DNA from: a virus
DNA length: 64,000 nt
Virus record (IMG/VR): IMGVR_UViG_3300009104_000006
Coordinates: 38,094 to 102,093 of that record
Direction: 5' to 3' (one strand)
Below are positions 8,823 through 28,900 of this stretch, one piece after another; within the stretch, counting starts at the first letter, position 1; every line of letters begins with the position of its first letter. The notes under the pieces were generated by a model that saw only the letters and a list, made by a program, of their open reading frames with translations, was not told the origin of the DNA and did no database searches. Both the position numbers and the translations under genes were made by a program.

Positions 8823-8995
8823 TGGATGATGAAGGATTCCTACTACACGAAGTTATTCCCGAAGGAGCCAATATACTATTTTTCTGTTGGGTTTGCGACA
8901 CTCCATCAAATAGTGAGATTGGATTTACAGTGGGATATTGCACTCAAGAGTGCTTTGAAAAGGACTTAGAAAGATTACAGGGGGAAGAAAAATGA
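8822..8995 (+). CDS. Small zinc-binding protein (57 aa)
   Basis: Hand-translated, CWVC...YCTQEC. TAATG overlap upstream and ATGA overlap with the chaperonin. Confidence 0.6.
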   Translation: MDDEGFLLHEVIPEGANILFFCWVCDTPSNSEIGFTVGYCTQECFEKDLERLQGEEK

Positions 8996-10524
8996 CAGAA
9001 GGAGATAGTGAAACGACACTAAGAAGCAACATAGAGGCAGTAAAGACGATTGTAAAAACGGTGAAGACTACGCTTGGACCGCTTGGGCGCGACAAATTGC
9101 TGGTTGATGATGGTGGGAACACCATCGTAACCAACGACGGAGCAACAATTCTCCGTGAACTCGACGTAAGTCATCCCGCAGGGAAGATGATAATCGAATG
9201 TTCGCAAACACAGGAGAGCCTGTGCTACGATGGCACTACTACGGCCGTTGTGCTTGCTGGTGAATTATTGACTAATAGTGCTGCACTTCTGAATAAAGGA
9301 CTTCACCCTAATGTTGTATGTAAGGGCTACAACGATGCTGCTACTATGGCAGTGGATTACCTAATGAATGAAATTGCCTTGAAGAATAAAGAACACTCGT
9401 ATGTGAGTGATAGTCCCCTTGATACAAATAGCCACACCGAATATGCAGTCGCAAAGACGGCGATAACCGGAAAAACTGTGGATGCGGCACTTGACGCAGT
9501 AGCACATCTGTGTGTATCGGCAGTGGAAAAGGCAGGAGATGCTGACAAAGTGAGGGTGCTATGTCTTCCGGGTGGAAGCCTAAAGGACTCGTATCTTTTC
9601 AATGGGGCAATCGTCAATAAGGACTTAGTCATTGAAGACGAGATAGATGGAGATTTACACATTGTCCTTTTGAATGGAGGGCTTGAACCACAGAAGACAG
9701 AAGATAATGTAACTGTCCAATTAGATATGCAGGGATATACGCAATTCAAATCATCCACTAATGAAGGAGTGTTGGAGCAAGCGAAGCAGATAAGCGAACA
9801 CTTACCGGAAGGAGGTTTGGCCTTTGTGAGAGACGGCGCGTTGGATAGCGTGGTAAACTACCTACGAAAGAACAACGTCCACACTATCAGAAATCTCCCA
9901 CAAAGCACAATGCGTGCGCTCTCAGCGACTCTTGGCCTTTCAGTGGCTCAGACCCCTTCGGACATAGAATGCGCCGCACAGGCAAAGGTCCACAAAGAGC
10001 GACATTATGATGTGAATTACATTTTCGTGCAAGGAGTGGTTGATTCAGACCAATCCACGCTTGTATTGCGAGGTGCAACCACCACTACACTCGATGAGAT
10101 AGAGCGAGGATTTGATGATGCGCTCGGTGTAGTATCATTGGTGAAGAATGGCGACAGTGTAGTGCCGGGAGGCGGTAGCACATACGCGGCTATGGCATCC
10201 CATCTCCGTTCCGAAGCCGCTTCAGTGTCGGGAAGAGCGCAGATGGCGATAGAAGCATTTGCTGACTCGTTGGAGATAATTCCAGCCACGATAGCGGAGA
10301 ATGGAGGGCAAGACCCTCTTGACTGCATCCTTGCACTCAGACACTCCATACAAGACGGCGTAACTGATATGGGGCCGGATTTAGAGCATGAGGGCATCGT
10401 TTCGATGTTAGACAATAACGTAATGGAGCCTGTGTCGTTGGTTAGACAAGCAGTTCTAAGTGCAACCGAAGTAACAACCTCAATCCTCAAGATTGACGAC
10501 ATGATTGCCAAGCGAGGCGAATGA
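8992..10524 (+). CDS. Group II chaperonin (thermosome subunit)
   Basis: TLGPLGRDK, TNDGATIL, DGTTT, LRG..LDEIER..DD, VPGGG, ILKIDD. Confidence 0.96.
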   Translation: MTEGDSETTLRSNIEAVKTIVKTVKTTLGPLGRDKLLVDDGGNTIVTNDGATILRELDVSHPAGKMIIECSQTQESLCYDGTTTAVVLAGELLTNSAALLNKGLHPNVVCKGYNDAATMAVDYLMNEIALKNKEHSYVSDSPLDTNSHTEYAVAKTAITGKTVDAALDAVAHLCVSAVEKAGDADKVRVLCLPGGSLKDSYLFNGAIVNKDLVIEDEIDGDLHIVLLNGGLEPQKTEDNVTVQLDMQGYTQFKSSTNEGVLEQAKQISEHLPEGGLAFVRDGALDSVVNYLRKNNVHTIRNLPQSTMRALSATLGLSVAQTPSDIECAAQAKVHKERHYDVNYIFVQGVVDSDQSTLVLRGATTTTLDEIERGFDDALGVVSLVKNGDSVVPGGGSTYAAMASHLRSEAASVSGRAQMAIEAFADSLEIIPATIAENGGQDPLDCILALRHSIQDGVTDMGPDLEHEGIVSMLDNNVMEPVSLVRQAVLSATEVTTSILKIDDMIAKRGE

Positions 10525-12271: not shown

Positions 12272-12892
12272 TCATACGAACGTAATTTTTATCTGGATAT
12301 CTGGGTCTGCCAAGGTCGAGCCGCAAGCGTTAATGGCATTGGCTCTCATATCCCATTGAACGTAATCCTCTTCGTCCAACGCCAGATAACCCCTTCCACC
12401 AGAAACATGGGCGATTTGAGCATATTCGCCGGTCCCAGACGAAGTAGCATCTTGGCTTGTTGATGCACTACCGCCTATTGATGCTGAAGAAACTGCATTT
12501 GTATTGCTATCATCGTAAGTAAGGCTTTTCATTACCCATGACCATGAGGTTGCTTCTCTCGTTAGAGTGTTGGCATCTCGTATGTAGCCCTTACAACCGA
12601 ATCTTAGGACTCCACTGTTATTGTTGAGCATAGCGTTGTAGTTTGAGTCCACAACAAACTCAATCTCGGCAGTAGACATTCCACTATTCATTGAAAATCC
12701 ATTCCCATTATTACTACTCAACGCATCTTCACCACTACTACCCAGATTTATGGAGTATACTATGAGTGCATCGTCATAGTTACCAGACGAAGATGTAGCC
12801 ATTGAGACAGTTTCTGGGGCTTGTAAACAGCCGCCGCCAGCACTTTGATTTCCTTGTTGGGCTACAACCCCAACTGCGCCTATGAAACTCAT
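12272..12892 (-). CDS. Putative fibre-tip / receptor-binding protein
   Basis: S/G/N-rich, ATGA-coupled to the distal fibre gene. Confidence 0.6.
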   Translation of the reverse strand: MSFIGAVGVVAQQGNQSAGGGCLQAPETVSMATSSSGNYDDALIVYSINLGSSGEDALSSNNGNGFSMNSGMSTAEIEFVVDSNYNAMLNNNSGVLRFGCKGYIRDANTLTREATSWSWVMKSLTYDDSNTNAVSSASIGGSASTSQDATSSGTGEYAQIAHVSGGRGYLALDEEDYVQWDMRANAINACGSTLADPDIQIKITFV

Positions 12893-15285
12893 GCTCCAAC
12901 CTGCACCCATTGACTTTCGCTACTACTGATATTAACACAGACATAGGCCGTAGCATCATTATCTGCTATTGCCGCATTAGAAGCCCATGAACCAGCCATA
13001 GCATCGCCCGAACCTAATGATACGGTAACACTACCACCTGTGTTATTGAAAATGGTATATTGTGTTCCTACTGCCGCATCTGCCGGTAAAGTCAATGTTC
13101 CCGCCGTCCAATACACATACGAGCCGCTTTGTGCCTGTGTGAGCGTTGTATTTCCTGTGACTGCTACCACATCAGCCAATTGATTGAGTGACACATTACC
13201 ATTTGAGTCACCTGTAATCCACACAGGGGAACCATCGCCCGAAGAAATTGAGAGTTGGTCTGAACCTGTTGCGCTTGCTGCATCTGCTCCACCAATCATT
13301 ACGTTATTTGAGCCTGTTGTGATGTTATCTGCGGCCTGATAACCAATTCCTATGTTCTTTGAACCGGAAGAAATACCTTTGAGAGAATCAGCGCCAAATG
13401 CCGTGTTATAATTTCCTGTTTGATAATTGGTTGTTCCGGCTAATGCAAACTCTCCAACTGCGGTATTGTAGCCTGTCCCTGCTCGTGCATACAACATAGC
13501 ATACTTTCCAACTGCCGTGTTATGGCTACTTGTGGTTTCATTATGTGCAACACCTTTACCGATGAATGTATTACTTGCTCCTGTTGTTAGATTATATGCG
13601 GTTTGATGTCCTACCGCAGTATTGTAATCTCCCCCGCTTGCTTGACTGAAAAGAGTATTAGTTCCTATTGCAACAGAATAATGCCCTCCGGCAGTTTGCA
13701 TCGCACTTCTTCCTATTACTGTATTTTCTTGGCTGTTAGTGACGCTATTACCGCTTAATGCGAGATGTCCTATTGCTACGGTGCTTGCTGAGGTAGTTTG
13801 TAATAAACCTGCACTTCTCCCGATAAAATTGTTATAATTAGCCGATGTTAATGCACTACCCGCTTCATGTCCAATTGTTATATTCTCATCACCGGAAGTA
13901 ATTGCATCTCCGGCATAGTTCCCAATAGCGATATTCTTCTCGCCACCATTCGGATTATAGAGGGCTTCAAAACCGATTGCGATATTATCTGCTTCTGTTG
14001 TTGCACTATCTAATGCTTGAACGCCAATGGCTATGTTTCTTGTTCCACTTGTATTTCCGTAAAGGGTGCGATAACCAAGAGCAGTATTGGAATTACCGGT
14101 TGTTGCTTTCAAAGCAGATGCTCCCACACCTGTGTTCTGAGTTGCTGAATTGGCTGTGCTTAACACATTTGAACCAATAGCGGTGTTATTAGCACCATTA
14201 CCAATACCACCACCAGCAAAATAACCCACTGCTGTATTATCATTAACTGTTGTAATTTCCTTTAATGCACCATATCCAATTGCGACATTGTAATGGCCGC
14301 TTGTTAAGTCTTCTAATGCTACACCGCCAATACCCACATTCATCAATGAGGAGGCTATTGCGCTGAATACACTTGCGCCAATACCAATGTTATGATTTGC
14401 GCTTGCTAATGTTCCTGTTGTCGGTGCTGAACCACCGCTATCTGTCTGAATAAGAAGTGAAGATGCAAAGTTAGTTCCTGATTGCTTAACATCGGTTAAG
14501 TCGCCCAACACAGAAGCACCGCCACCACCTGCGGCTTCTAATCCAATAGTCCCTGCTGAATGGTCGTAAGTCATTACATAGTTATCTTGACCCGAACCTA
14601 CGCTTTGGTCTGCATCAAGAGTGAAATTACCTAATGCAAGATTTCCTGTTCCCGATGGGGTTATGAACATATCAAAATTAGAATTACCTGTATCTTTCAT
14701 CTTTGCCCCAATCTTTCCAGCGACATATCCACCATAGTTTATCTCTCCTAATCTAAACTCTAATTGTGTTCCAAAACCTGCTGCTCTTGTGCCTGATGTT
14801 ATCGCAGTCGTCATGTGTGCTGCGGTCTGAATTGCATTAGTTGCAGTTGTTGGTGATGTAAAGGTAGCAGCAGTTGAACTGTTACTATTACCTTTAACCT
14901 GAAATGCGAAGGAATTAACAGAAGAAGCATAATTCACTAATACTGACCCTGTGCCGTTTGGGTTAATGTGTATATCCGCATTTGACGTGGTGACGATATC
15001 ATTACCGTTCATGTCTAAATCACCACCCAACTGTGGTGTGTCATCTGCGGCTAAACTTGCTATACCACCACCACCTGCTGAACTCCATACAGCCTTACTT
15101 CCATCCCAAGTCAGAACATCATCTGACGAAGGGCTGTCCTGACCTATCTTGGTGATGTGCCCTGAGCCATCGAAGGTGAGAGCAGCGGTCCCGCCAGCCT
15201 CCTTTAGCGAGCCACCATCATCAAGCGTGATGTCGTCTGTAACGATTAGCCCGTTTTTTACTTTGAAGTCCTTTTTCGTTCCCAA
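12889..15285 (-). CDS. Tail fibre / adhesin with 14-aa N(T/I)A(I/V)G beta-roll repeats
   Basis: Many N.A.G..AL repeats (YadA-head-like), PQLGGDLD.NG motif, fibre-type C-terminal domain. TTG start after GGTGA. Confidence 0.8.
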   Translation of the reverse strand: MGTKKDFKVKNGLIVTDDITLDDGGSLKEAGGTAALTFDGSGHITKIGQDSPSSDDVLTWDGSKAVWSSAGGGGIASLAADDTPQLGGDLDMNGNDIVTTSNADIHINPNGTGSVLVNYASSVNSFAFQVKGNSNSSTAATFTSPTTATNAIQTAAHMTTAITSGTRAAGFGTQLEFRLGEINYGGYVAGKIGAKMKDTGNSNFDMFITPSGTGNLALGNFTLDADQSVGSGQDNYVMTYDHSAGTIGLEAAGGGGASVLGDLTDVKQSGTNFASSLLIQTDSGGSAPTTGTLASANHNIGIGASVFSAIASSLMNVGIGGVALEDLTSGHYNVAIGYGALKEITTVNDNTAVGYFAGGGIGNGANNTAIGSNVLSTANSATQNTGVGASALKATTGNSNTALGYRTLYGNTSGTRNIAIGVQALDSATTEADNIAIGFEALYNPNGGEKNIAIGNYAGDAITSGDENITIGHEAGSALTSANYNNFIGRSAGLLQTTSASTVAIGHLALSGNSVTNSQENTVIGRSAMQTAGGHYSVAIGTNTLFSQASGGDYNTAVGHQTAYNLTTGASNTFIGKGVAHNETTSSHNTAVGKYAMLYARAGTGYNTAVGEFALAGTTNYQTGNYNTAFGADSLKGISSGSKNIGIGYQAADNITTGSNNVMIGGADAASATGSDQLSISSGDGSPVWITGDSNGNVSLNQLADVVAVTGNTTLTQAQSGSYVYWTAGTLTLPADAAVGTQYTIFNNTGGSVTVSLGSGDAMAGSWASNAAIADNDATAYVCVNISSSESQWVQVGA

Positions 15286-15310
15286 GTTATCACCATAATT
15301 TCACTATCCA

Positions 15311-18300
15311 TCAGGTTATGAGTTGTGTTGTGCAGAGACTGTATGTATGAGCCCCGTTTGCAGTAGGAGTAAATCTCACTTCGATATTACTGCCACTAAC
15401 TGTAGCATCCCAAGTTCCAACTACTGCAGAACCTGTGCTGATTTCCGCGTAGTGAGTTAGGAAGGCATTTGTGCCGTTGTATGTAATGAGTATCTCACCC
15501 GCATCTGTATCTACACTATCGTCCTTCTTAATATGATACAAGACTTTAGCCGCTCGGTATGTTGCCTTAGCGATGTTCATGAGAGATGTTGCGCCAGAAA
15601 TTGATGCTCCACTACCTCTTGCTGTATCTATGATGGCTACTGCATCGGCGCTGAGTGTGGCGCCTTGCACTTGTCCATCGGAAGTTAGATTTCTAATTGT
15701 GGCTACATCTCTGCTGGCGTCTACAGTTAGAGCCTTACTCGCTGCCACAGTCCCTACTGTAAGACCGTCTAAGACTCCTAACTCGGCGGTTGTAAGTGTA
15801 GTAGAATCGAGAGTAAGCGAAGTATCTCCAGTAATTGTGCCCGAAACCGCCAGACTGGTTCCTGTAATTGCCCCTCCAGCAAGAGTGCCCGAAGTTGTGA
15901 TATTAGATGAGCCTGTGTTAATTGTGCCGAAGCCCGATGTGATACTACCTGAGTTGAGTGCTCCTACAGTGGTAAGACTCGATGCCGTAACTCCACTTCC
16001 AAGCGTGTTGGCGTTGAGAACTGATGTGCCACCAATCTTGTATGCAGGAGTGCTGATGGAAGTCAAGTTCATGTGATTGTTAGAAGTCCATGAGTCGGTC
16101 GAATCCACCCAGATGAATGTCTTATCATCTCCGCTTGATTCAAGAGTAATTCCACCACCATCTATTGCCGCATCATTTCCGACACCGTTTCCAAGAGTAA
16201 TGTTAGTATCGGCTACGTCAATCGTAGTGCTGTTTACCGTGGTCGTTGTCCCGCGCACGATGAGATGACCCTTCACATCAACAGTCGATGTTGCGGCAGT
16301 TGCGCCACCTGTGACTACAAGCACTTCGGCGAGAGCGCCACTTGTGGATGTCGCTACACTGAGACCTATCTCGCCGGTTTCTGAACCAGAAGTTGCTGCT
16401 GTCGTCTTTGTCTGTATCTTTCCAAAGGCTTGGTTGTTTTGTGCAGCATCGTCGGAGTAAAAGGTAATTGCGCCTGCTACATCACTGGCAGCACCAGCCG
16501 CCCCCTTGTCCTTTACGAAGCGCAGTTCAGAACCAGTCTGGTCATTAGTAGTATTCTTGATTTGAACCACAGGTTTAGTGCTCGTGCTACTCTCAATACT
16601 CAGTAAAGGAGTCGTAATTGTGCGTGAAGTGCTACTGGTCATACTACTGGTAGCAGCCGTCTGTGCAGCATTCACGCTCATCTCGCCACTGGAAGCAGAA
16701 AGACCTGTGCCAGCGAATAGCGTAGCAATCCTGTCCACTGTTGTCTTTCGGTTGGTTCCGCCTGCGCCATCATCGACTATGAATAAATCACCACTCGCAA
16801 GTCCTGCACCGATGTCGGTCATTCCGTCAATGTCCAAAGAGAAAGTTAGGTCGTATGGGTCTCCGTCAGAGCCTGTTGATGTATCAGTCCAATTGATTTC
16901 TAATCCATCTCCATCAATGAACTTCACTTCTTTGTCTTCATCAATTGTGACTTCTGTGCCGTCCCCATCCTCTAAGACAAATCCGCTACCCATTCCGTCT
17001 GCGCCTGAAGACGATTGGGCCCAAACTGCATTTCCTCCGCTTAATTTGAGAACATACCCATTTGTATGAGTGCTTCGTCCTATCCTTGTAACATTTCCAG
17101 ACGCATCGAAAGTGAAAGACTCATCTCCGCCCGCTTCTTTGAGACTACCACCATCATCAAGAATAATATCTCCTTTGAACTTAGCCGTGCCGCCAGTGTC
17201 CAGAGTCATTACGTAATTTTGAACGTTAAGAGGGTTATCGACGCTACTTGCGACGTTATCATAATCTTTAGCAATATATCCGATATGGAATATATTGGCT
17301 TGAGTTTCGCCACTTCCACCTGCTCTGTTGGCTTGCCTTCCCACACCCCAAGAGTTTCCTGTGCCGCTTCGACCTTGAGTGTATACCGTCCCTTGACCAA
17401 CGTGGATATTTTCTGCTTGGTCTAAGACTAAGGCATTACCCATTCCGTTGTATGTGACGCCTGCAACATCATCATTAGCAATATCTGTATGAATACGGGC
17501 TTCCGCATAATTCATAGTGGTGTCATTGGAGGAACCAGATAAAGCAGGCCCATTGACTTGAAACATTGAGTTAGTTTCTCTCGCAGTCCCATTCACTTTA
17601 GCCCAAGATGTTGTTGTAAGATTAGTAAACTTCCCTGTGGAAGCAACATTTGCGCCAATAGTAGCACCATCCACTGTGCCCCCATTGATATCTACCGTTG
17701 TAAGGATACCCGCATCAGCCACAGTTCTACCTGCATTAGTCCAATTACCAGCCATTGAAGCGATAGTTGCTGCACCGCCATCAGTTAATCCGTAAGCACC
17801 AACTGTGAAGTTACCAGTATCAATATCCAAAGCAACTTGACCAGAAGTGCCAATAATTTTCAATTGCTCTTCAGAAGCATCCCATAACATATGGTCGCCA
17901 GAAGTGGCTGAATGGAATGTGACGTCTACGCCACTGCCAGCAGTGCCAGTAGTAACAGCACCGGTCGCACTGAGTGTCGTGAATGCTCCCGACCTTGGAG
18001 TAGCCGTGCCGATATCCGTATTGTCTATCGTGCCAGCGTTGATATCGACTGTAGTCAAAGTAGATGTGCCTGTTGCACTGAATGTCGTGAATGCTCCTGT
18101 AGAAGCACCATTTGCACCGATAGGCGTGTCATCTATCGCACCACTGTCGATGTTCACATTAGTCATCGCTTCATCGGAGAAATCAACTGCGCCCGCTTGT
18201 TCGTAAGCGCCGAGTTTAGTGACTGTTAGCGTATCAGTAGCGAAAGTGAAATCGGAATCATCGGTCAATAAACCAGCAGTGGAAGCAAATGGAACTCGAC

Positions 18301-18787
18301 CAGAAGTCAATCCATCGGCAGTAATACTCGCCGCTCTGAAATTGTAAGCGCCGATATCTATGTTCGCACTCGCTGTAATTCCAGCAGTTGTAAGTGCAGT
18401 AATTGTAGTAGCGGCGATTGTTCCTCCTTCGACTTTATCGCCACTAATCTGATTGTTAGCCAGAGTAAGAGTTCCGCCGGAAACATCGAGGGTTTTTCCA
18501 GAGCCAACTGTAACATCCGATGTGGCTATCGTCGCACCATCTATCGTGCCAGCGTTAATGTCTACCTTAGTGATATTCACTTCTCCAGACCCTTTCGGGG
18601 TGATATTGATGTCGATATTGGTATCTGTGCCATCGGCTGCAAGTGTCGTGCCTGTAAGCGTAACACCGGCTGCAGCGACATTCGTATCGAATATCCCCGC
18701 TTTTACAGTATGGTCGCTCGCAAGCGTAACATCGCCGTCTTCTACTACCAATCCTTGCTTTACTCTGAAATCTTTTATCGTGCCCAT
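15311..18787 (-). CDS. Long tail fibre protein
   Basis: G/T/S/A-rich, VDIN.GT.D..IG repeats, C-terminal YRAAK..E...GT.A..T.Y domain. Confidence 0.8.
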   Translation of the reverse strand: MGTIKDFRVKQGLVVEDGDVTLASDHTVKAGIFDTNVAAAGVTLTGTTLAADGTDTNIDINITPKGSGEVNITKVDINAGTIDGATIATSDVTVGSGKTLDVSGGTLTLANNQISGDKVEGGTIAATTITALTTAGITASANIDIGAYNFRAASITADGLTSGRVPFASTAGLLTDDSDFTFATDTLTVTKLGAYEQAGAVDFSDEAMTNVNIDSGAIDDTPIGANGASTGAFTTFSATGTSTLTTVDINAGTIDNTDIGTATPRSGAFTTLSATGAVTTGTAGSGVDVTFHSATSGDHMLWDASEEQLKIIGTSGQVALDIDTGNFTVGAYGLTDGGAATIASMAGNWTNAGRTVADAGILTTVDINGGTVDGATIGANVASTGKFTNLTTTSWAKVNGTARETNSMFQVNGPALSGSSNDTTMNYAEARIHTDIANDDVAGVTYNGMGNALVLDQAENIHVGQGTVYTQGRSGTGNSWGVGRQANRAGGSGETQANIFHIGYIAKDYDNVASSVDNPLNVQNYVMTLDTGGTAKFKGDIILDDGGSLKEAGGDESFTFDASGNVTRIGRSTHTNGYVLKLSGGNAVWAQSSSGADGMGSGFVLEDGDGTEVTIDEDKEVKFIDGDGLEINWTDTSTGSDGDPYDLTFSLDIDGMTDIGAGLASGDLFIVDDGAGGTNRKTTVDRIATLFAGTGLSASSGEMSVNAAQTAATSSMTSSTSRTITTPLLSIESSTSTKPVVQIKNTTNDQTGSELRFVKDKGAAGAASDVAGAITFYSDDAAQNNQAFGKIQTKTTAATSGSETGEIGLSVATSTSGALAEVLVVTGGATAATSTVDVKGHLIVRGTTTTVNSTTIDVADTNITLGNGVGNDAAIDGGGITLESSGDDKTFIWVDSTDSWTSNNHMNLTSISTPAYKIGGTSVLNANTLGSGVTASSLTTVGALNSGSITSGFGTINTGSSNITTSGTLAGGAITGTSLAVSGTITGDTSLTLDSTTLTTAELGVLDGLTVGTVAASKALTVDASRDVATIRNLTSDGQVQGATLSADAVAIIDTARGSGASISGATSLMNIAKATYRAAKVLYHIKKDDSVDTDAGEILITYNGTNAFLTHYAEISTGSAVVGTWDATVSGSNIEVRFTPTANGAHTYSLCTTQLIT

Positions 18788-18799
18788 TTTCTATCCCTC

Positions 18800-21181
18800 T
18801 CATATTGTCATTGCTTGCCAAGAGATGCGCACGACTACCGCTTTACTGTTAGCCGTAGGCGTCACTTGTAATTCAACGTTCGCACCATCTATCGCTGCAT
18901 CATAACTTCCCTGTAACGTTCCATGACTCGTTACAACACCGTATGTGGTGAGATATGCCTCTGTTGCATTGACCGAATCCGTTCCATTATGCGTTAGAAC
19001 CATTTCAGCAGTTTCATATCTGGAATCGGTAGTATTCTGCACTTCAACAAGCACTTTCGCCGCTCTGAACTTCGTTTTATCAAAAAGAGTCACATCAATA
19101 GAAGTTGAAGTGCTTGAACTGCCTGTGCTATTCGTTGCATAGCCGAAACCAGTCTCCTTTACTTGGAATGTGGCCTCTGGGGAGGCTTGGAGTATACCGA
19201 CTTTATCTCCGGCAGTATCTACTTTGAGCACATTCGTGTCGATTGTAACATCTCCGCTTCCAGTGATGGTGCCAGTAGTAAGTGCATCGAGATACCCAGT
19301 GGCGAATCTGATGGTGTTAGAACCTAAGTTCAGCGCACTATCTGCACTTGGGTAAATATGCTGATTAAACGTCCAAGCATCATTGGCATCGACCCATGAT
19401 ATTGTCTTGTTAGTGCCACTCGATGATTCAAGAGTGATACCGCCTCCATCGACGGCAGCGTCGTTTCCTAAGCCATTACCGAGATTGATGTTTTTATCCT
19501 CCACGTCTATCGTAGCCACGTTCAATGTAGTAGTTGCTCCACTGACAATTAAATCACCAGTGACTGTGAGGTCATCGCTTACAGTAAGCGTTCCACTCGC
19601 TGGACCTATTGACGTAATGCCCGTTTGGGCGGCATCAAGATTCAAAACACCACTGGATGCTGAAATGCCTGTGCCAGCCATCGCAGTAGCCAAATCAGCA
19701 ATAGATTCTTTCTTGGAATTATTTGAGTCGTTAGCGTCAATGAATCCAATCGAATCGGCGGCGACATCCACAGCAGCAGCAGAAAGAGCATTCAAATTGG
19801 TGGCTATGGAATCCCCATCAAGAAGCACCTTTGAGGTATTGAAGTATAACCTTGAATCATCAGAATCGCGCCATAGAGTAGTTGCTGAACCCGGATTAGT
19901 AGCCGTGCCAGTGCCAAATTGCACACCCGTAGGCGCACTAATGAGGCCTGCTGTTGATACTACGCCTACAGTAAGAGTGTTCGTTCCAGCATTGTAGGTG
20001 AAGGCAGACTCGCCAGAGAATCCGCTTGACCCATCATTGTATTGAACATCACCAGTAGAGCCACCCGAAGCGCTCGAACTACTACTTGATGCGAATATCT
20101 TGACCCATGCGCTGCCGTTGTATGCAAATACTGCTGCTGACGCAGGACCAACGGTGGAATTGATACCAGACGGGTCGAATGCTATATTGTGAGTAGCAGA
20201 AGCAGCGTTGTTTACTGTCACCGTATGACTTGGAGGAAATGTGCCACTTGGCGTTAGTGTGATGTTACCAGTAGGCGTAGCATGAAAGAAGTTTGGCCCA
20301 TCGAATCTGAAAGTCTGCGAAGCATTACTCGTGCTAAGTTTGTCTGGACCGAGTCTGTATGACCTTCGCGCACCGCCTTGCTTACCACTGAAGTAAAGCA
20401 CGTTATCCCCAGCATTACTGTAAGACATCCACAGAGCGCCTAACTCACTGTTAGTCAGTGCACCATTTTCATCTCCACCTCCGTGAATACCATCTAAGTC
20501 AGTGTGCATGTCAACGCGATTTGAATCCGTAACAGTGGCTCCTACTGCACCTGTGCTTACGGGCGTCATGTAAATTGGTGATGGACGAAGGAAGGTCCGT
20601 CTGTCGAGTATCTCTCCTCCGGCTGTAGTCATATCCAAATCGCCTGTGCCGCTGGAATAGACACATTTCACTATTCCAAGAACCGTAGTTTGCTTAGACG
20701 AGAGTGAATTATTGGGGTCAGAAAGGAATCCTTCTGGAGTTACAGGATAACCGCTCGATACAGGAGTGCCCATTTCAACATAGATATTCTTCTTCGTATT
20801 ACTTCCATCAGAGCAGACATAGACTACTAAAAGAACAGACTGACCACTTGTTAAAGCAGATTGGCTCCCTTCTATACGACTATCTTCAAGCGTCACTGTG
20901 TAATCATCGGGCGCATTGCTATCGTAACCTCCTCCGAATGGCACTATGATGCCATCAATGACAGCATATCCACCCTTAATCGTCAATACATTGGTTGAAG
21001 CAGAAATAGCGCCGGGCATATTCGCAGGTGTATTTCTATCACCATCTCCTACTGCCCCGTCTTCTAATGCTAAGATTCCATTACCATGAAGCCCCTCATA
21101 GAGATTAGTGAAAGATGGAGAAAGTATGTAGTCTCCATCTGTTAGGCCCGTTGTATGTCCAGATTTCGTATTATCGCCCAT
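18800..21181 (-). CDS. Proximal tail fibre protein
   Basis: G/T/S-rich, G.VQYN..G.F.G motif, same type of C-terminal domain as the 15311 gene. Confidence 0.78.
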   Translation of the reverse strand: MGDNTKSGHTTGLTDGDYILSPSFTNLYEGLHGNGILALEDGAVGDGDRNTPANMPGAISASTNVLTIKGGYAVIDGIIVPFGGGYDSNAPDDYTVTLEDSRIEGSQSALTSGQSVLLVVYVCSDGSNTKKNIYVEMGTPVSSGYPVTPEGFLSDPNNSLSSKQTTVLGIVKCVYSSGTGDLDMTTAGGEILDRRTFLRPSPIYMTPVSTGAVGATVTDSNRVDMHTDLDGIHGGGDENGALTNSELGALWMSYSNAGDNVLYFSGKQGGARRSYRLGPDKLSTSNASQTFRFDGPNFFHATPTGNITLTPSGTFPPSHTVTVNNAASATHNIAFDPSGINSTVGPASAAVFAYNGSAWVKIFASSSSSSASGGSTGDVQYNDGSSGFSGESAFTYNAGTNTLTVGVVSTAGLISAPTGVQFGTGTATNPGSATTLWRDSDDSRLYFNTSKVLLDGDSIATNLNALSAAAVDVAADSIGFIDANDSNNSKKESIADLATAMAGTGISASSGVLNLDAAQTGITSIGPASGTLTVSDDLTVTGDLIVSGATTTLNVATIDVEDKNINLGNGLGNDAAVDGGGITLESSSGTNKTISWVDANDAWTFNQHIYPSADSALNLGSNTIRFATGYLDALTTGTITGSGDVTIDTNVLKVDTAGDKVGILQASPEATFQVKETGFGYATNSTGSSSTSTSIDVTLFDKTKFRAAKVLVEVQNTTDSRYETAEMVLTHNGTDSVNATEAYLTTYGVVTSHGTLQGSYDAAIDGANVELQVTPTANSKAVVVRISWQAMTI

Positions 21182-21530: not shown

Positions 21531-22942
21531 TAACTTTCACCTCGCATGATTACTGCGGCACTCTTGTTCAAGCCCATAGGCTTGTAGTTTTTACCGATTC
21601 TCCCTCTTTCGGCATTTTTTCCAATTATAAGCCCAGAAGACGACACTTGTCTTAATGTGATTATTGGTGTTATGAAAACATCCAATGAATCAAAGAAGGA
21701 AAGATTCTCATCCACAATCTGACTACTTTTATCTGGATTTTCAATTGAACCTCTTGAGATGCTACCGCTTGTGATATTCTGTAATACGCCCTCTATACCA
21801 GTATCTAACGTCAAGAATGTAAAATCACTCGTCTTATTACTCAACTTGTGTTTTGATTCCATTACTACATACATATTATTGCCATATTCAACTACACTAC
21901 CCGGTCTCAAATCCCAAGCATCTGGATGTCCATTTGTTACAATAGCCCCTCTCATAATCGAGTTTGCTTTCAATATCTGTCTTGCGACCTTCTTTGCACT
22001 CTGCACGCTGCTTATCGACGCATCATATATTGGTGTGGTGTTTTCGAGAATGTCTGTATCGAACTTACCCTGCTGTCTTGCACCATCGTCCATAGTAAGT
22101 ATCAATTTCTCATTCAGAGCAATGGCCTCGCCCTGCACAGTAATTCGATTCTCTGTATTTTCCACTGGGCTTCTATCTTCACTCCCAGTTCTAAATTGTG
22201 GATTTAGTTGTTTAATTCCGCTTGAAAAGTTGAATGGCACGTATTGTAGTGCACCATGGCGATTGAATATCGAAATCCTGTTATCATGACGAGAGATGAA
22301 TCTTAATGCAGATAGCAGATTAACACCATTGAAATCTGCAGCAAGATACGTATTGCTTACCTTTCTTCTATTTTTACCCAAGTTCGCTATTGTGGGTGAT
22401 TCGCCTATCGTCACAGCAGTGATGGTGCCAGTGATAGAATTACCCAGTTTCATTGCCAAATCCGTTGTTCTCAACCCTACATCGACAATTTGACCAAAAC
22501 GCAGTGCTTCTTCATCGAACCCTAAATCCTTCAATGTGCTACCTTTCAGATTCCTCACATTCACCCTTAATCCAGAAGTCGTGCTTTCATTACTACCTCC
22601 TATGATTCTATTCAACGGCTTATTTACACCATACATCAGAGATGTAGGCGCGTCTTTTCCTTTTCCTGTCCAGATAGTGCCTTTCAATGAGTGCCCATCT
22701 GTTTCGTTATGGGTGATATGCATACCAGATTCTGATTCTACAAATGTATATGTCTTTTCTGTCGCTAAATCGTAGTTCTGAGCATTCCTTGTCTCAATTG
22801 TAATTTTGCTCTTATTGCTACTTTGAGGTTGAATCTTAGCATAATGAACTGCATTATCTACGAATACAGGCTGTCTAACATCGTTCATTACTGAAGTGAG
22901 AGTGGTATCGAAACGACCAACAGAAGATTGTATTAGTGTCAT
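21530..22942 (-). CDS. Putative baseplate hub / tail protein
   Basis: Position after the giant tail gene. C-terminal A.K.A..IL...G.P....LRPG.V.....Y.V....H pattern resembles hub proteins. Confidence 0.6.
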   Translation of the reverse strand: MTLIQSSVGRFDTTLTSVMNDVRQPVFVDNAVHYAKIQPQSSNKSKITIETRNAQNYDLATEKTYTFVESESGMHITHNETDGHSLKGTIWTGKGKDAPTSLMYGVNKPLNRIIGGSNESTTSGLRVNVRNLKGSTLKDLGFDEEALRFGQIVDVGLRTTDLAMKLGNSITGTITAVTIGESPTIANLGKNRRKVSNTYLAADFNGVNLLSALRFISRHDNRISIFNRHGALQYVPFNFSSGIKQLNPQFRTGSEDRSPVENTENRITVQGEAIALNEKLILTMDDGARQQGKFDTDILENTTPIYDASISSVQSAKKVARQILKANSIMRGAIVTNGHPDAWDLRPGSVVEYGNNMYVVMESKHKLSNKTSDFTFLTLDTGIEGVLQNITSGSISRGSIENPDKSSQIVDENLSFFDSLDVFITPIITLRQVSSSGLIIGKNAERGRIGKNYKPMGLNKSAAVIMRGES

Positions 22943-25900
22943 GCTCCATCCCCACTATGGTCTGTAATGCTAAATGAAATGTCCCCTTTGTGCCCCTTAG
23001 AATGCAACGCTTGACTAAATCTTGGCTTAACAGAGAAGTCCATTCGCTTCATTTCGTCATCTGTATCTTCTTCTTGCCGCCTTCTTGGAGCATCGGAACG
23101 ATGATGTTGTAGCGTATTATCAGAAATGACTAATCTACTCACTGTCGAGTTTAGACTCTCCTTGTCGAATCCAGAAACTTCTGTTCCGGGTAGTTTAGGA
23201 CCGAAACTCGTTGGTGCCGTGAAAGCCCCTGTGGGGTCGAATACGAATACTGGCAAGTAAGGCCCATTACCGTCCGGTAAACTTCTTCCAGATGCCAGAT
23301 TCCCAGTGGCTGCTCTTCCATTACTAACTTCATACGTAAAGAGACCATATTTTCCACCAGATGATGCAAAGAGGTAATTCTGGTCGTATTGAGGAGTGCC
23401 AGTAACAATTGAATTATGAATGCGATATACCTCTGTATGTTTAGAGTCTAAGGTTCTAATTGGTCGAAGTAAGAACTTTACATTCTTGTCTTTTTCGTTG
23501 TTTCTCACTGATTTTGAGGTGTAGTCATCTGCATCTTGATATGGATTGCTCGTATCATTACTTCCCGTCAATGAAGCCACTCCCCAATTCGTATCATCAA
23601 ACAATCCAGCATAGTTGCTTGCATCTAACACATAGGAACCGCCATAGGGTCTGAATGCGTTAGTGTGAGAATAGCGATGCACTGCACTTACAGGAGAGCC
23701 ATTATTCTGTCTTCCAAATGCGCCACCTGTGTAATCGACATCGGCTATCGTATTAGTTCCAACTTGGAATCCACCATGAAGAACGACGCGCTGACCTACA
23801 TTTCTGTCTGTATGAAGACTATGTGCCTCAGTATTGATAGCAATGTGATTTTGCTCTATTCCTTCAGTCACTTCAGCGTCTATTCCAATTCTGGGACTTG
23901 TTCTTGATATTGCATCCTTATGAGGAGAAACGCCTACAAACTCTTCGATTCTATCACTTGCGACAGCCTCTGGCTTCAGTAACCCATTACTGTCTATCGC
24001 TAATTTAGCACTAATTCCCCTCTTGACTTCATCGGCTTGCAGTATAGCGTTACGGGGACGTAGCAAACCATCTCCAAAGAGCGGTTCGGCAGTATTATGA
24101 CTCAAGACTACACCCGTTTTGTGGATAGGGGCCGAAAGTTCAGTAAGCACATCCTCATTAAATCGCGTTGGATAACGCACGCCACGACCATTACCCATAT
24201 CTCCCACACGCATAGAGTGAGTTGGCGCAAATACATCTACCAAATCATGGCCTGTATTAGTTGCATGTAAGTTCACATCGTTGTTTGTGCCACCAAATCT
24301 CGGTATCGTAGTCGTCACACTCACATTGCCGTTAGATAGATTAGCCACCCCCTTCATATTGAAAATTGGTTTAGCATTATTCCAAATTCTCCGATATGGG
24401 CTTCTGCTATTCCTTCTATCGTTCTCATAAGCGTCACCACAGTCCCATGCCGGTCTAATGCCGAATCCACGCACTGGAGCACGCCTTACATCCTCTCCTC
24501 GCTCGTTGCCCCACCAATCCACCAGATAATACTGAGAGGCCTCAGATAGGCTTGTTTTGTCCATAGCCACTTCATCTCCCCACCAGTCTCTTTGAGTTCC
24601 TGCGTTATTGGTTAGTGTTCTCACAGGAGTCCCAAAGGGTCTGGTCATCCTTCTACCGTCGCTATAACGCACTTGCCAGTCCGCTTGGTCTTGAGCCAAC
24701 ATTCCTGTGAAATTGGTCTGTCTTTCCATAATTCCAACATATGTGGTAGGATGAGTCGCATTGGAAAGTCCCGAACCGCCTGCATAAGTCCATGTCGCAG
24801 TTTCAGTCTGAACCAGTGGCCCAGCGTCATAATCAAGAGTTTTGATGCCAGACCCGGTTGGATTTGTTTCATAGACTGCTCTGGTCGGACTGAGACCGTA
24901 TGTAGGCCTGTTACAGGCTTGACGTATAGCGTTACGGTAGCCATACGGTTTTCTTCGAGAAGAGCCCATAGCGGCCGTTGTGATGCCCGAAGAGACAGAA
25001 TAACTGCCGTCATCATCGCTATCTACCCATTCTCGAAGGTCGCTGGAAGTGAAATTGGGATTTCCATCGCTGTGATTGTGCACATTCCAAGATGCGCTTG
25101 CAAAACTGAAAAGGTCAAGTTTGCTGACATGAGGGCCGCCACGACTTCCACAAGGCCAAAAACCACTCAACATTACATCGGTTCCTCCCGCTTGATGGTC
25201 AGTGCCAGTTGTAGCGGCAACTGTTTCTCCTGTCTTCGATATGTTAGGTGTCATAATTAGGAAGTCAAATGGTCCGGCACTCATAGCATGTGTAAAATCA
25301 TGATAATGTATAGTCTCAAAGTGTTCTGGTATTGAATTATACGATGCTTTATCCACAGCAACACTTCCCCAAGTAGTTCGACTATCTGAGAAATACGTAT
25401 TTGGCCTTCCTAAATTAGGATGCCACATACATAGGAAAGCATCTGGTGTATAAGATGAATATGTATCACGATTACCATTCACTATATCTGGTAGTATATT
25501 CGCAAATACACTCTTCTTTCTATCTGTAAGTAGTTTACTTGCAGATAATGTATTGTATGAATGTGATAATCGTAGTTCTGCACCATCGTATATATTGTCC
25601 CAGAAATTATCTGAACCCGATTTAGCAGCCAAATAGATGGTATTCGGCACATTCACATTTGCAGCATCATTACCGCTTCTCTTTGTATACGGTTTAGAAT
25701 AGATATCTCCATTCTTTGCCGTGTATTCAATCTCCTGAGCGTAATGAGAGGTTAATGGGAATAGATTTGCATTGTCTACGGTAATTGTCCCACCTGTATT
25801 GAAGGATTCAACAATGCATTTTGGATTAAGGCTGACAATTTGTCGTAGTTTAGAGTATATGTCAAGGTATGTTGAGGTATATCCATTGATAGTTTGTTGA

Positions 25901-28900
25901 TTGCCTATACTTCCAAACCCATTTCTTGAATACATGAAGTAATCATCCGGTGCATATTGCGATAGTTTTCGGAAGTTGGACGCGGGCACTCCGTTCTTGT
26001 GAAGTATACTCCACCATGGTATGTGTAATGTGTGACCCGGTGAAGAGTCTGAGAACATAGTTGAGTAAGGAAACCCTCTTCTTGTGAATGCAGGAGACTC
26101 CGTCATCTGTATTCCATGTGCATTATGAAGCATTAGTGGAGGTATATTTGTGAATTGACTACCGAAATCAGGATTGACATCAAGCATAGCCTCATTGATG
26201 AATACCTCACAACCTCGCACATCTGCTTGTGTGGCTTTTGCTAAAACTAATGTCAGCCCACCTTTTGCAGTGCTCTCATTGATGCCTATCACTGTGTTTA
26301 CTTGCTGACTGGTAAGTTCTGTAGTGCTGTTGTTGTGGAAACCAACAAGTTGGTTGTTGAACAGATTTGGTTGTATGATGATTTGGTAGGCTCCAACTTC
26401 AGCAGGGTCTGGGAAATGCCTTGCGAGTGTGTAGTTGGCTGCGGCTTCGAGAACGATGCTATGTCCGCCCGCTTTGTTCACTGCACCCGCTAATGACCCA
26501 GCAGAAGCCAAAATACCATAACCGTCATACTTCAAGCCTGTTTCAAACATCAAAGTGAATGCTCCACCATGAATATCGCTTGGGCCAGAAGGTGCTGCGT
26601 TTATGCCACTGAAGTTGATTTCAGCATCCATTGGATGAGTATTGTCTTGCAGTGACGTGCTTTCTGTTCCGCCATATTGCGTTACCATAGAATTGTTGAT
26701 ACCCGATTTCTTGTTAATTGCAGTGGCGTGTTCGTTGAAACGAGCGGAATCTGTGAATCCAACACTCATGTTGTAATCGGCAAGATGACGATTATACAGA
26801 CTCTGATATGCAGGATGAGCCCAGTGTCCGGGCAGCATGGGCATTGTGGGCGTGATGAAGTGATGTCCCATTCTGGGATATGGCATAGGCGTCATCTTTG
26901 GTTTACTGTATGCATTGTATGCTATCGTATCACTGGCAAAATAGCGCGTATGGGCCATATCTGGGGAATTTCCAGATACTTCAGCATGGTCACGTAAGCG
27001 TCTTGACGCAAAGAAACGCGTGCTTCCACCGGGTATATAGTAAGATGGAACAACTTTCAGAGCAGTAGTTGTGTTTTCCGCCATAAAGGCAGTAAAATCA
27101 ACATCTCCTACAATCTCCATGGTTGTATCATTTTCAGCAAGATATGAGCAAACAACTCCTTCATCCGTTATGGGATTATACACTCTGAGGAACTTTCTTC
27201 CGTCCTTCGCCTCTTTCGTTCCAAATCCTGCATTGAAAACCTCAGTATTCAGTGCCCCGTCTATTGTAAGAACGCCAGTCTCAGCATTCCAATTATTTGC
27301 ACCAAGTGTTTGTGTAACCGATACACTATCGTTTACCACACCGTTAGTATGACTGTAAATAGTCGGATAACGATGAGTGTGACTGTGTCCCATCTTACAG
27401 ACATGGAAGAATAGAGTCCTATCATGTAATTCGTAGGACGTATGTAGTGGCTCGTTATTTACCCATGCTCCTACTTCAGAATCGAATGTTATGGGGTCTA
27501 TTCTCTCCCAATTATGGTCTTCGTATGTCGGCCCTTTTCTTGGCCCTGCTACACTGTTATCGAAAAGATGGCCTATTGTGTCGGCACCTAAATCTGGGTG
27601 TATCATACCTCCCGTTCCCATAGTTTCGTTCTGATAGGCTTGCAGTGGGTCGAATCCTGAGCGCACTACGATATTTCCCGGTATGGAATCGGGATTCGGT
27701 AGTTGCACTTTGAGATTAGGAGTCTTTCCAGAGTTAGCGAGTGCTGGTCCGTTGCCTTTCACACCACGATTTTCCGGCGTGCGGAAGCCACGTATGATAG
27801 TCCCCAGCGGACTACCACCCTCTATCTTGTGTATTTGCCCCGCATCGTCTGTTACAGTAATACTCTGGAATTGTATCTCTTCATTCGGTATGGTAAGCAC
27901 ATTCCCCACCTTGTATGGGTGTTTTCTCAGCAACTCAGGGTGTGCAAGTTCCTGTGCCTGTAATACAGGTAGCATAGCGCTATTTGTTGTCTCGAAAGTA
28001 AATCTAACATTCCCATACAATTTCTCTCCTGTAGTATAGGCTGTGTTATTCTTCACCCTCGTCATCCACGGCACTGCACCAAGGCCTCGTGCATTGATAG
28101 TGGGTAAACTGAGATTGCCGCCATCCATTCTTTTCCAAACTATGTGTTCTACTGAGAAGTTTTTCGCTGCTGAATTTTTATACATGTCAAATGCATTCAC
28201 ATCCCCCATCCAATACTCGTTAGGATAGTTTCCGCTCACGGTATAGGAATATCCAGTGCCGTCCATATCTTGATGGTTAGCAGATACATTACGTTCCGCA
28301 TCTCCACTTTCAAGAAGCACAGAACCAACAGAGTAGTCTAAATCGAAGAGTAAATCACCAGTCTTAGCGCGTCCGGGTGTTGCGTTTTTGAGATTGAGGT
28401 CATCTGATACTGCACCGTGGAAATATGTCCCAACATCTCCATTGAATGGAGCATCAGAGGAATTGTCTGCGAAAGCATTTGCTATCGTTGGAACAGTTGT
28501 GCTATCGTTGTGCTGTTCGCCGTGGTCTACAATTAGAGCCTCTACATTCGGACCAGCATTCGCGGGCGCAATAAAGCGGTCTTGACCGTGGAATCTTTCA
28601 TCCCATAGTGTAGTTCCAGCATAATGGATGGGGTCAGTTCCTTCACCCTTAACGTGTAACCAATCACCTGTAGCAGTAATTGCGTCTCTATCGAACTTCG
28701 CTATCAAAGAACTTTCAGAATTGTAACTGACTACGAGGAATGCATTGCTATACAATCCCTGTGGCAATGAGAGTTCCTTTGGTAAAGTAGTCGATATCTC
28801 GTAATTTGTGGGTTTTGCCCATTGGTTTGAGTTATCCGTAGTATCTGTGTCCTTGAAGTAGCCTTGTCCATTAGCAGGCGTTCGCCCATTAGCATCTAAT

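What the first reader, a model, noticed from the sequence alone, without database searches (positions are those of the whole stretch)
12272..21181. Possible plug-and-socket daisy chain of fibre proteins
Seen: fibre 1 (18800-21181) and fibre 2 (15311-18787) end in the same domain (K.(F/Y)RAAKVL..E...NGT..A.LT.Y...G..DA...G.N.E...TPTAN). The gene following each one begins with the same peptide (MGTIKDFRVKQGLVV and MGTKKDFKVKNGLIV). Fibre 1 lacks the peptide and fibre 3 lacks the domain. Inference: the N-terminal peptide docks into the preceding C-terminal domain, giving an extensible fibre 1-2-3-tip chain in gene order.
Basis: partly seen in the sequence, partly recalled or inferred. Interest (0 to 1): 0.7.

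Follow-up and report, generated by a model that had tools for sequence, protein, structure and literature searches.

The report
Plug-and-socket joints between phage fibres
Three neighbouring tail-fibre genes of a marine phage look as if they are joined end to end by a reusable connector: a C-terminal "socket" domain related to gp9, the protein that holds the long fibre of phage T4, and a short N-terminal "plug" on the next protein. The socket domain recurs in thousands of other phage protein clusters.

Summary
Fibre 1 (18800-21181) and fibre 2 (15311-18787) end in the same ~105-aa domain. Fibre 2 and fibre 3 (12889-15285, TTG start) begin with MGT.KDF.VK.GL. The whole 102-kb contig holds exactly two of each.

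The C-terminal domain is a homologue of the C-terminal domain of T4 gp9, the published "socket" to which the long tail fibre attaches through the N-terminus of gp34. Support comes from sequence, profile and predicted fold; gp9 is the top PDB match.

The plug resembles the gp34 N-terminus (core F-[RK]-[VA]-x-x-G-L), but only moderately (profile-profile P = 2.7e-4).

In 47 related viral loci the socket lies at the extreme C-terminus in 64 of 65 cases, in proteins of 138-2466 aa. 50 of 51 strict plug matches start 4-59 nt after a socket gene, across 8 socket clusters. The gene syntax is x-S, P-S, P-x.

A head-to-tail chain fibre 1-2-3 is therefore the best explanation (about 0.75). Binding itself was not shown; a read-through monomer fold was uninformative.

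The "tip" ORF (12272-12910) has neither element, so its place in the chain is unsupported.

This is a new variant of a known kind: the T4 gp9-gp34 joint reused as an iterated fibre-to-fibre connector.

The parts
18800..21181 (-). Fibre 1 gene (793 aa): no plug, C-terminal socket. Proximal segment; its N-terminal virion anchor is of unknown type.
   Evidence: Orthologues of 786-883 aa lie on contigs up to 116 kb.
18803..19117 (-). Socket 1: the last 105 aa of fibre 1, a gp9 C-terminal-domain-like eight-stranded beta-sandwich.
   Evidence: phmmer vs PDB hits T4 gp9 residues 158-273, E = 0.0017. phrog_967 'baseplate wedge tail fiber protein connector', E = 5e-8. AF2 pLDDT 89.7. Foldseek top hit 1qex_A (gp9), E = 2.2e-6.
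18788..18799 (-). 12-nt spacer between fibre 1 and fibre 2 (GAG GGA TAG AAA after the TGA stop). It holds a GAGGGA Shine-Dalgarno-like site and is in frame, but has a second stop.
15311..18787 (-). Fibre 2 gene (1158 aa): N-terminal plug and C-terminal socket, the middle link.
18746..18787 (-). Plug 1: the first 14 aa of fibre 2, MGTIKDFRVKQGLV.
15314..15628 (-). Socket 2: the last 105 aa of fibre 2. It belongs to a different subfamily from socket 1 (30% identity).
12889..15285 (-). Fibre 3 gene (798 aa, TTG start): N-terminal plug, no socket. Distal segment, with tail-spike-like beta-helix repeats.
   Evidence: (phrog_23837, 6002, 4636)
15244..15285 (-). Plug 2: the first 14 aa of fibre 3, (M)GTKKDFKVKNGLI.
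12272..12910 (-). It has no plug, no socket and no family match; membership of the chain is not supported by this mechanism.

Best explanation
Fibres 1, 2 and 3 are three segments of one long fibre, assembled non-covalently head to tail.

How it most likely works:
- By analogy with gp9 (not tested here), each protein is presumed to form a homotrimer.
- The C-terminal eight-stranded beta-sandwich of fibres 1 and 2 is homologous to the C-terminal domain of T4 gp9. [quoted passage not shown]
- The first ~14-25 residues of the next protein (M-[GA]-T-x-K-[DN]-F-x-V-K-x-G-L...) bind that knob, as the N-terminus of gp34 binds gp9 in T4.
- Fibre 1 (no plug) is anchored to the tail by some other means. 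Fibre 3 (no socket) is the distal, receptor-facing segment.
- Sockets 1 and 2, and their cognate plugs, belong to distinct subclasses. This probably sets the assembly order and prevents fibre 2 from polymerising on itself.
- The joint also marks a recombination boundary: distal segments are swapped just after the plug.

Shown here: homology of the socket to gp9; terminal placement of both elements; gene syntax and adjacency; matched counts.

Inferred: the physical docking, its geometry, trimer stoichiometry, and orthogonality of the two joints.
For: **1. Socket is homologous to the gp9 C-terminal domain.**
- phmmer vs PDB returns only T4 gp9, residues 158-273, E = 0.0017.
- PHROG 967 'baseplate wedge tail fiber protein connector', E = 5e-8 to 1e-11.
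- The socket HMM run against the whole T4 genome in six frames hits only gene 9 (E = 1.8e-4; next best 2.3).
- The AF2 model has pLDDT 89.7 and eight strands. Its best Foldseek PDB match is 1qex_A gp9: E = 2.2e-6, TM 0.62, 23% identity.
[quoted passage not shown] The attachment is 'via the N-terminus of gp34' (PMC10253068).

**2. Terminal placement.**
- 64 of 65 socket hits in 47 viral loci plus the window end 0-5 aa before the stop, in proteins of 138-2466 aa.
- 98 of 99 single-copy hits among the best 148 of 7,290 representative clusters end within 8 aa of the C-terminus.

**3. Adjacency.**
- 50 of 51 strict plug matches in 751,000 aa of six-frame translation start 4-59 nt downstream of a socket gene.
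- This covers 8 socket clusters at 45% identity, with unrelated upstream architectures.
- The same arrangement is seen in the isolate Kyanoviridae phage C48C1, where the gene after the socket begins MSTNKKFRVQNGLDV.

**4. Syntax.** The pattern is x-S, P-S, P-x, never P-S, P-S, P-S. The contig holds exactly 2 sockets and 2 plugs. 12 of 148 socket proteins also begin with a plug.

**5. Plug resembles the gp34 N-terminus.**
- gp34 ranks first of 1,303 ATG ORFs of T4, at 21.0 bits against 12.2 for the runner-up. None of 20,000 random N-termini reach that score.
- hhalign of the plug profile against a profile of seven gp34 N-termini gives P = 2.7e-4, in register on F-x-x-x-x-G-L.

**6. Connector ends are conserved while bodies are swapped.** Window vs L005: fibre 1 is 91% identical and fibre 2 is 87%, but of fibre 3 only the first 26 aa are conserved.

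**7. Co-divergence.** Socket divergence and cognate plug divergence correlate: Mantel r = 0.74, p = 2e-4. This is confounded by shared ancestry.
Against: - No binding was computed or measured. The only fold I could run was an AF2 monomer of a read-through fusion (socket 1 + 5 residues + 35 aa of fibre 2, 8-row alignment). It left the plug disordered, with pLDDT below 50.
- The plug-gp34 similarity is short and fragile:
  - HMMER local search does not find it.
  - When internal GTG/TTG codons are allowed as starts, an internal site in T4 gene 42 scores as high (22.8 vs 21.0 bits).
  - Without the most T4-like plug (L044) in the profile, gp34 drops to 13-17 bits and rank 1-12, depending on parameters.
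- The same fold closes Acinetobacter phage tailspikes and RaK2 gp529, where it is read as a trimerisation or terminal domain with no known partner.
- 49 of 148 top family members carry 2-8 tandem copies, so the domain is not only a terminal socket.
- Ten sockets in the loci are followed by a gene without a canonical plug. At least six of these loci have a plug or plug-like gene 0.3-9 kb downstream.
- The loci were ascertained through the socket, so the frequency of plugs without sockets in nature is untested.
- Fibre 2 carries both elements. How self-polymerisation is avoided is only inferred.
Confidence: 0.75

Rival explanations
1. Three independent fibres. The C-terminal gp9-like domain is only a trimerisation/folding or carbohydrate-binding end domain. 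The shared N-terminal peptide is a common anchor by which fibres 2 and 3 each bind the same site on the tail.
For: The same fold ends Acinetobacter phage tailspikes (5w5p, 8oq0, 6e1r), and RaK2 gp529 where it was proposed to aid trimerisation. A 2026 preprint lists 'gp9 C-terminal domain-related' among C-terminal receptor-binding modules. The AF2 fusion did not dock the plug.
Against: Independent fibres predict P-S, P-S, P-S. The observed pattern is x-S, P-S, P-x in every window-type locus. Non-fibre proteins of 138-286 aa that end in the socket are also followed by plug genes. Socket and plug counts match exactly in the contig. gp9, the closest relative, is itself a fibre socket.
Confidence: 0.1
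2. The joints are real but promiscuous. Either plug fits either socket, giving branched or variable fibres (1-3, 1-2-3, 1-2-2-3) rather than one ordered linear chain.
For: The 13-residue plug core is nearly the same in fibres 2 and 3. Fibre 2 carries both elements. Some family members end in two tandem sockets (P0055, P0059).
Against: Sockets 1 and 2 are only 30% identical and fall in separate clusters, each with its own plug subclass..VVEDGDVTL.. after socket 1 and ..VVTEDI.. after socket 2. This is conserved across phages.
Confidence: 0.1
3. The shared ends are relics of tandem duplication of a fibre gene, with no interaction between them.
For: Fibres 1 and 2 share ~300-480 aa of C-terminal similarity. 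Fibres 2 and 3 share an internal module.
Against: The same pairing recurs with unrelated protein bodies in 8 socket clusters and in a Kyanoviridae isolate. The ends are conserved while the bodies are replaced. The domain sits at the exact C-terminus in 98 of 99 single-copy family members.
Confidence: 0.03

Closest known systems
T4 gp9 (baseplate-fibre connector, 'socket protein') with the N-terminus of gp34 (long tail fibre proximal subunit)
   Same: The socket is a sequence and fold homologue of the gp9 C-terminal domain. The plug shares the N-terminal core F-[RK]-[VA]-x-x-G-[LF] with seven gp34 N-termini. Both are trimer-on-trimer, N-terminus-to-C-terminal-domain joints.
   Different: In T4 the socket sits on a 288-aa baseplate protein, is used once, and genes 9 and 34 lie 63 kb apart. 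Here it closes long fibre proteins, is used twice in series, and the partner gene follows immediately. No similarity to gp9's N-terminal or middle domains, or to the rest of gp34, was found.
T4 long tail fibre chain gp34-gp35-gp36-gp37
   Same: A multi-protein fibre whose segments are encoded in the order in which they are assembled.
   Different: The T4 joints after gp34 use unrelated proteins (kneecap gp35, gp36). The N-termini of gp35, gp36 and gp37 lack the plug. No homologues of gp35-37 were found here.
T4 gp10-like branching domains with conserved N-terminal peptides (Klebsiella KP32-type RBP pairs, G7C gp66/gp63.1, CBA120 TSP1-4)
   Different: That is a different domain. gp10-like domains resemble gp9's N-terminal and middle domains (PMC3004832), not its C-terminal domain. 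It attaches laterally (branching), not end to end. No gp9/gp10 Pfam family was detected here.
C-terminal gp9-like domains of Acinetobacter phage tailspikes (AM24 5w5p, APK09 8oq0, P1 6e1r) and RaK2 gp529
   Same: The same fold at the same C-terminal position.
   Different: No partner is known for those; the domain is interpreted as a trimerisation or terminal domain. Whether plug genes follow them was not tested.
SU10 (Kuravirus) long tail fibre gp12 + gp13
   Same: The window's capsid protein is SU10-like (PF17236). SU10 has a two-protein fibre with an elbow and a 786-aa proximal subunit (PMC9509320).
   Different: The SU10 gp12 C-terminus and gp13 N-terminus show neither socket nor plug by eye. 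The joint there is of another kind.

Membership tests
gp9 C-terminal domain family (PHROG 967 C-terminal part; ECOD 'gp9 C-terminal domain-related') | Significant sequence/profile similarity to the C-terminal domain of T4 gp9 | tested here: met
   phmmer vs PDB: only gp9, residues 158-273, E = 0.0017. phrog_967 E = 5e-8. Socket HMM vs T4 six-frame: only gene 9, E = 1.8e-4.
gp9 C-terminal domain family (PHROG 967 C-terminal part; ECOD 'gp9 C-terminal domain-related') | Eight-stranded antiparallel beta-sandwich fold | tested here: met
   AF2 model: pLDDT 89.7, eight strands. Foldseek top PDB hit 1qex_A gp9: E = 2.2e-6, TM 0.62.
gp9 C-terminal domain family (PHROG 967 C-terminal part; ECOD 'gp9 C-terminal domain-related') | Forms a trimer and binds the N-terminus of a fibre protein | not testable with these tools
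   Only monomer folding is available. The read-through fusion was uninformative. Function is inferred from gene syntax.
gp34-type N-terminal attachment segment | Located at the extreme N-terminus, with core F-[RK]-[VA]-x-x-G-[LF] | tested here: met
   Plug alignment A2. Seven gp34 N-termini.
gp34-type N-terminal attachment segment | Statistically supported homology to gp34 N-termini | tested here: inconclusive
   hhalign local P = 2.7e-4, probability 41%. Rank 1 of 1,303 ATG ORFs of T4. Parameter-sensitive, with one equally scoring internal site in gene 42. HMMER local search misses it.
T4 gp34 (long tail fibre proximal subunit) as a whole protein | Similarity beyond the N-terminal segment (P1-P5 domains) | tested here: not met
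   The first 130 aa of fibre 2 do not hit gp34 chains 9x3r_M or 9f4a_Le in PDB. Fibres 1 and 2 have no family named as a gp34 homologue; fibre 3's hits were not checked against gp34.
T4 gp10-like branching (XD) domain systems | Presence of a gp9/gp10 N-terminal-type domain in the carrier protein | tested here: not met
   No Pfam gp9/gp10 family at E <= 0.1 in any of the fibre proteins. The PHROG 967 match covers only the C-terminal part, profile positions 407-497 of 519.

The most novel reading that the evidence does not exclude
The gp9-C-terminal socket and the F-x-V-K-x-G-L plug form a general, ancient connector code of tailed phages. T4 gp9-gp34 would be one instance. Sockets and plugs would come in mutually orthogonal specificity classes. 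Fibres of one, two or more segments, and small plug-bearing adaptor proteins, would then self-assemble in a set order, and distal segments could be exchanged between phages at the plug boundary. If so, the next gene's first 15 residues would predict fibre architecture across thousands of uncultured phages, and would give ready-made parts for building modular fibres.
Probability: 0.35. Interest if true: 0.75.

Novelty: new variant of a known kind. Interest (0 to 1): 0.6.

Why it matters
Phage host range is set by fibres, yet most fibre genes in metagenomes are unannotated and their assembly is unknown. This finding gives a simple sequence rule: a gp9-like domain at the exact C-terminus, and a plug at the N-terminus of the next gene. 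The rule says which neighbouring genes form one fibre and in what order.

It also extends the only well-studied example (T4 gp9-gp34) to a family of at least 7,290 protein clusters. It points to the plug boundary as the place where distal, receptor-binding segments are exchanged.

Finally, it offers a testable explanation for gp9-like domains at the ends of tailspikes, which have so far been read as trimerisation modules.

Tried and rejected
I used the search for related loci instead.
- **No near DNA match in phage isolates**. tblastn of the 25-aa plug against isolates found nothing.
- **Plug against T4 with standard tools failed.** A HMMER local search with the plug profile does not recover gp34. 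The genome search with the plug alignment found no candidates. An N-anchored semi-global score was needed, and it proved parameter-sensitive. A Gumbel fit to those scores was poor and I did not use it.
- **AF2 monomer of a read-through fusion** (socket 1 + GEGSK + 35 aa of fibre 2): no docking, plug pLDDT below 50. This is uninformative for a trimer interface and a shallow alignment.
- **SU10**, whose capsid protein is related: gp12/gp13 have neither element, so SU10 is not a model for this joint.
- **S-PM2 p089**: the socket match is insignificant (E = 0.4) and the next gene has no canonical plug. I did not count it.
- **ESM Atlas** gave nothing useful for the 'tip' ORF or for the fibre 1 N-terminus.
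- **Stop-codon read-through fusing fibres 1 and 2** was considered and rejected. There are two stops in the 15-nt interval, and in most other loci the gap is out of frame.
Full report
**Context.** The window is the right-hand 64 kb of a 102,093-bp viral contig. On the minus strand it carries a structural module:
- terminase, portal, a 1889-aa protein, protease and an SU10-like major capsid protein;
- a 304-aa tape-measure-like protein;
- a 5515-aa ORF and two small ORFs;
- then the four ORFs of the finding.

No phage isolate is close at the DNA level. Protein relatives are marine.

**Observation.**
- Fibre 1 (793 aa) and fibre 2 (1158 aa) end in a similar ~105-aa domain: 30% identity over 110 aa, BLASTP E = 7e-12.
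- Fibre 2 and fibre 3 (798 aa, TTG start) begin with MGT[IK]KDF[RK]VK[QN]GL.
- An HMM of the domain and a pattern for the peptide find exactly two of each in the window and in the whole contig.

**What the C-terminal domain is.**
- Against all PDB sequences, fibre 1 matches only T4 gp9, residues 158-273 (E = 0.0017).
- PHROGs places the domain in phrog_967, 'baseplate wedge tail fiber protein connector' (E = 5e-8; 1e-11 for a relative).
- A profile built from viral relatives and run against the complete T4 genome in six frames hits gene 9 alone (E = 1.8e-4; next best 2.3).
- An AlphaFold2 model from a 31-row alignment is confident (pLDDT 89.7, pTM 0.82) and has eight strands.
- Its best structural match in the PDB is gp9 (1qex_A, E = 2.2e-6, TM 0.62, 23% identity). 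Next come the C-terminal domains of Acinetobacter phage tailspikes and a baseplate chain of Klebsiella phage Lilla1 (9f4a_LA).
[quoted passage not shown] Attachment is 'via the N-terminus of gp34' (PMC10253068).

**What the N-terminal peptide is.**
- T4 gp34 begins MAEIKREFRAEDGL.
- I built a profile from 19 marine plugs, with no T4 input, and scored it as an N-anchored alignment. It ranks gp34 first among the 1,303 ATG-started ORFs of T4: 21.0 bits against 12.2. None of 20,000 random N-termini reach that score.
- Seven divergent gp34 N-termini share M-[SA]-[ED]-x(2-5)-F-[RK]-[AV]-x-x-G-[LF]-D-A. A profile-profile comparison with the plugs aligns the two in register, with P = 2.7e-4 and probability 41%.
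- This evidence is only moderate. HMMER's local search misses it. An internal site in T4 gene 42 scores as high if internal TTG codons are allowed as starts. Removing the most T4-like plug lowers gp34 to 13-17 bits.

Scanning IMG/VR with the socket alignment gave 47 loci.
- 64 of 65 socket hits end 0-5 residues before the stop codon, in proteins of 138 to 2466 aa.
- Of 51 strict plug matches in 751,000 residues of six-frame translation, 50 start 4-59 nt after a socket-ending gene.
- The pairs fall into 8 socket clusters at 45% identity, with unrelated protein bodies: 790-820-aa and 940-1170-aa fibres, 272-286-aa gp9-sized proteins, 1268-2466-aa giants, and 138-aa and 228-aa proteins.
- Gene maps read x-S, P-S, P-x in the window's relatives. 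In three loci they read x-S, P-x, x-S, P-x, where the middle fibre is split into two genes with new ends.
- Ten sockets are followed by a gene without a canonical plug. In at least six of these loci a plug or plug-like gene lies 0.3-9 kb further on.
- In the isolate Kyanoviridae phage C48C1, a giant tail fibre ends in the domain (E = 1e-3) and the next gene begins MSTNKKFRVQNGLDV.

**Size and shape of the family.** A full HMMER search of 1.84 billion representatives finds 7,290 clusters at E <= 1e-3, and 3,781 at E <= 1e-10. Among the best 148:
- 99 have one copy, and in 98 of those it ends within 8 aa of the C-terminus;
- 12 also begin with a plug, so they are middle links like fibre 2;
- 49 have 2-8 tandem copies. 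The fold is therefore also used as a repeated bead, which cautions against reading every copy as a socket.

**Modularity.** Between the window and L005, fibre 1 is 91% identical and fibre 2 is 87%. Of fibre 3, only the first 26 residues are conserved (77%); the rest is replaced. Between the window and L003, fibre 2 keeps its two ends and changes its middle. The connector ends are thus the constant parts. Socket and cognate plug divergences correlate (Mantel r = 0.74, p = 2e-4), although shared ancestry contributes to this.

**Mechanism proposed.** Trimeric fibre 1 is anchored to the tail by an unknown N-terminal region. Its C-terminal knob receives the three N-termini of fibre 2, and fibre 2's knob receives those of fibre 3, as gp9 receives gp34. 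Fibre 3 carries tail-spike-like repeats and is the distal segment.

Sockets 1 and 2 (30% identical) and their plugs differ consistently. The plug after socket 1 continues ..VVEDGDVTL..; the plug after socket 2 continues ..VVTEDI.. or ..IVTDDI... This would give order and prevent self-polymerisation of fibre 2, but it is inferred, not shown.

The 212-aa 'tip' ORF has neither element and no family. Nothing links it to the chain by this mechanism.

**What failed or was unavailable.** Multimer prediction is not on hand. SU10's two-protein fibre lacks both elements.

**Comparison and novelty.** The joint is best described as the T4 gp9-gp34 joint moved onto the fibre proteins themselves and used in series. 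It differs from three known systems:
- the other joints of the T4 long fibre;
- the gp10-like branching domains of Klebsiella, G7C and CBA120 systems, which use a different domain and attach laterally;
- the current reading of gp9-like ends of tailspikes as trimerisation modules.

I found no description of this fibre-to-fibre use in seven full-text searches (and the papers read). The library is incomplete, so prior description cannot be excluded.

**Verdict.** New variant of a known kind. Confidence about 0.75 that the three proteins form a head-to-tail chain through these elements.

Noticed in passing
window 16982-17167 (-), fibre 2 residues ~541-602: Fibre 2 carries an internal copy (53% identity) of the module that follows the plug in fibre 3 (..LDDGGSLKEAGG..). 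It is preceded by GGTAKFKGDIIL, which looks like a decayed plug. This may be a fossil joint left by fusion of two former links. The same module lies inside fibre 2 of L003 (74% identity).
   Followed up: partly
L012:10364-14339, L004:10339-14694, L015: In three relatives the middle fibre is two genes: P-560/645 (plug, new C-terminal end) and x-775/805-S (new N-terminus, socket). These genomes therefore read x-S, P-x, x-S, P-x, possibly two separate two-segment fibres.
   Followed up: partly
P0054, P0063 and 47 other representatives: The socket-like domain occurs in 2-8 tandem copies inside single proteins; for example P0054 has 7 matched stretches in 1033 aa. The function of these bead arrays is unknown.
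   Followed up: partly
L018, L023-L025, L030, L032, L043 (about 10309-10617 in L024); L026, L029, L031: Small plug-bearing proteins of 60-104 aa follow gp9-sized (272-286 aa) socket proteins or lie further downstream of sockets. They may be adaptors between a socket and a fibre that has no plug of its own.
   Followed up: no
L019, L022, L026-L029, L031, L041: Sockets here are followed by genes starting MATKIKGGNISVP, MATKIQAFNLH or MATKLRRSNFH. They share M-A-T-K with plugs but lack the F-x-V-K-x-G-L core. This may be a second plug type.
   Followed up: no
window 22939-39486 (-): A single 5515-aa ORF lies between the tape-measure-like gene and the fibre genes.
   Followed up: no
window 8992-10524 (+): A phage-encoded GroEL-type chaperonin (Cpn60_TCP1, E = 6e-115), next to a family B DNA polymerase and a PD-(D/E)XK nuclease on the plus-strand arm.
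   Followed up: no
window 18788-18802 (-): Fibres 1 and 2 are in the same frame, separated by TGA GAG GGA TAG AAA. The two stops make read-through unlikely. In most other loci the gap is out of frame.
   Followed up: yes
window 19364-19573 (-) and 16067-16273 (-): Fibres 1 and 2 share a 70-aa block at 67% identity (..TTT.N..TIDV.D.NI.LGNG.GNDAA.DGGGITLES..). It is also found in Synechococcus and Pelagibacter phage proteins. There is a weak Pfam End_tail_spike match.
   Followed up: no
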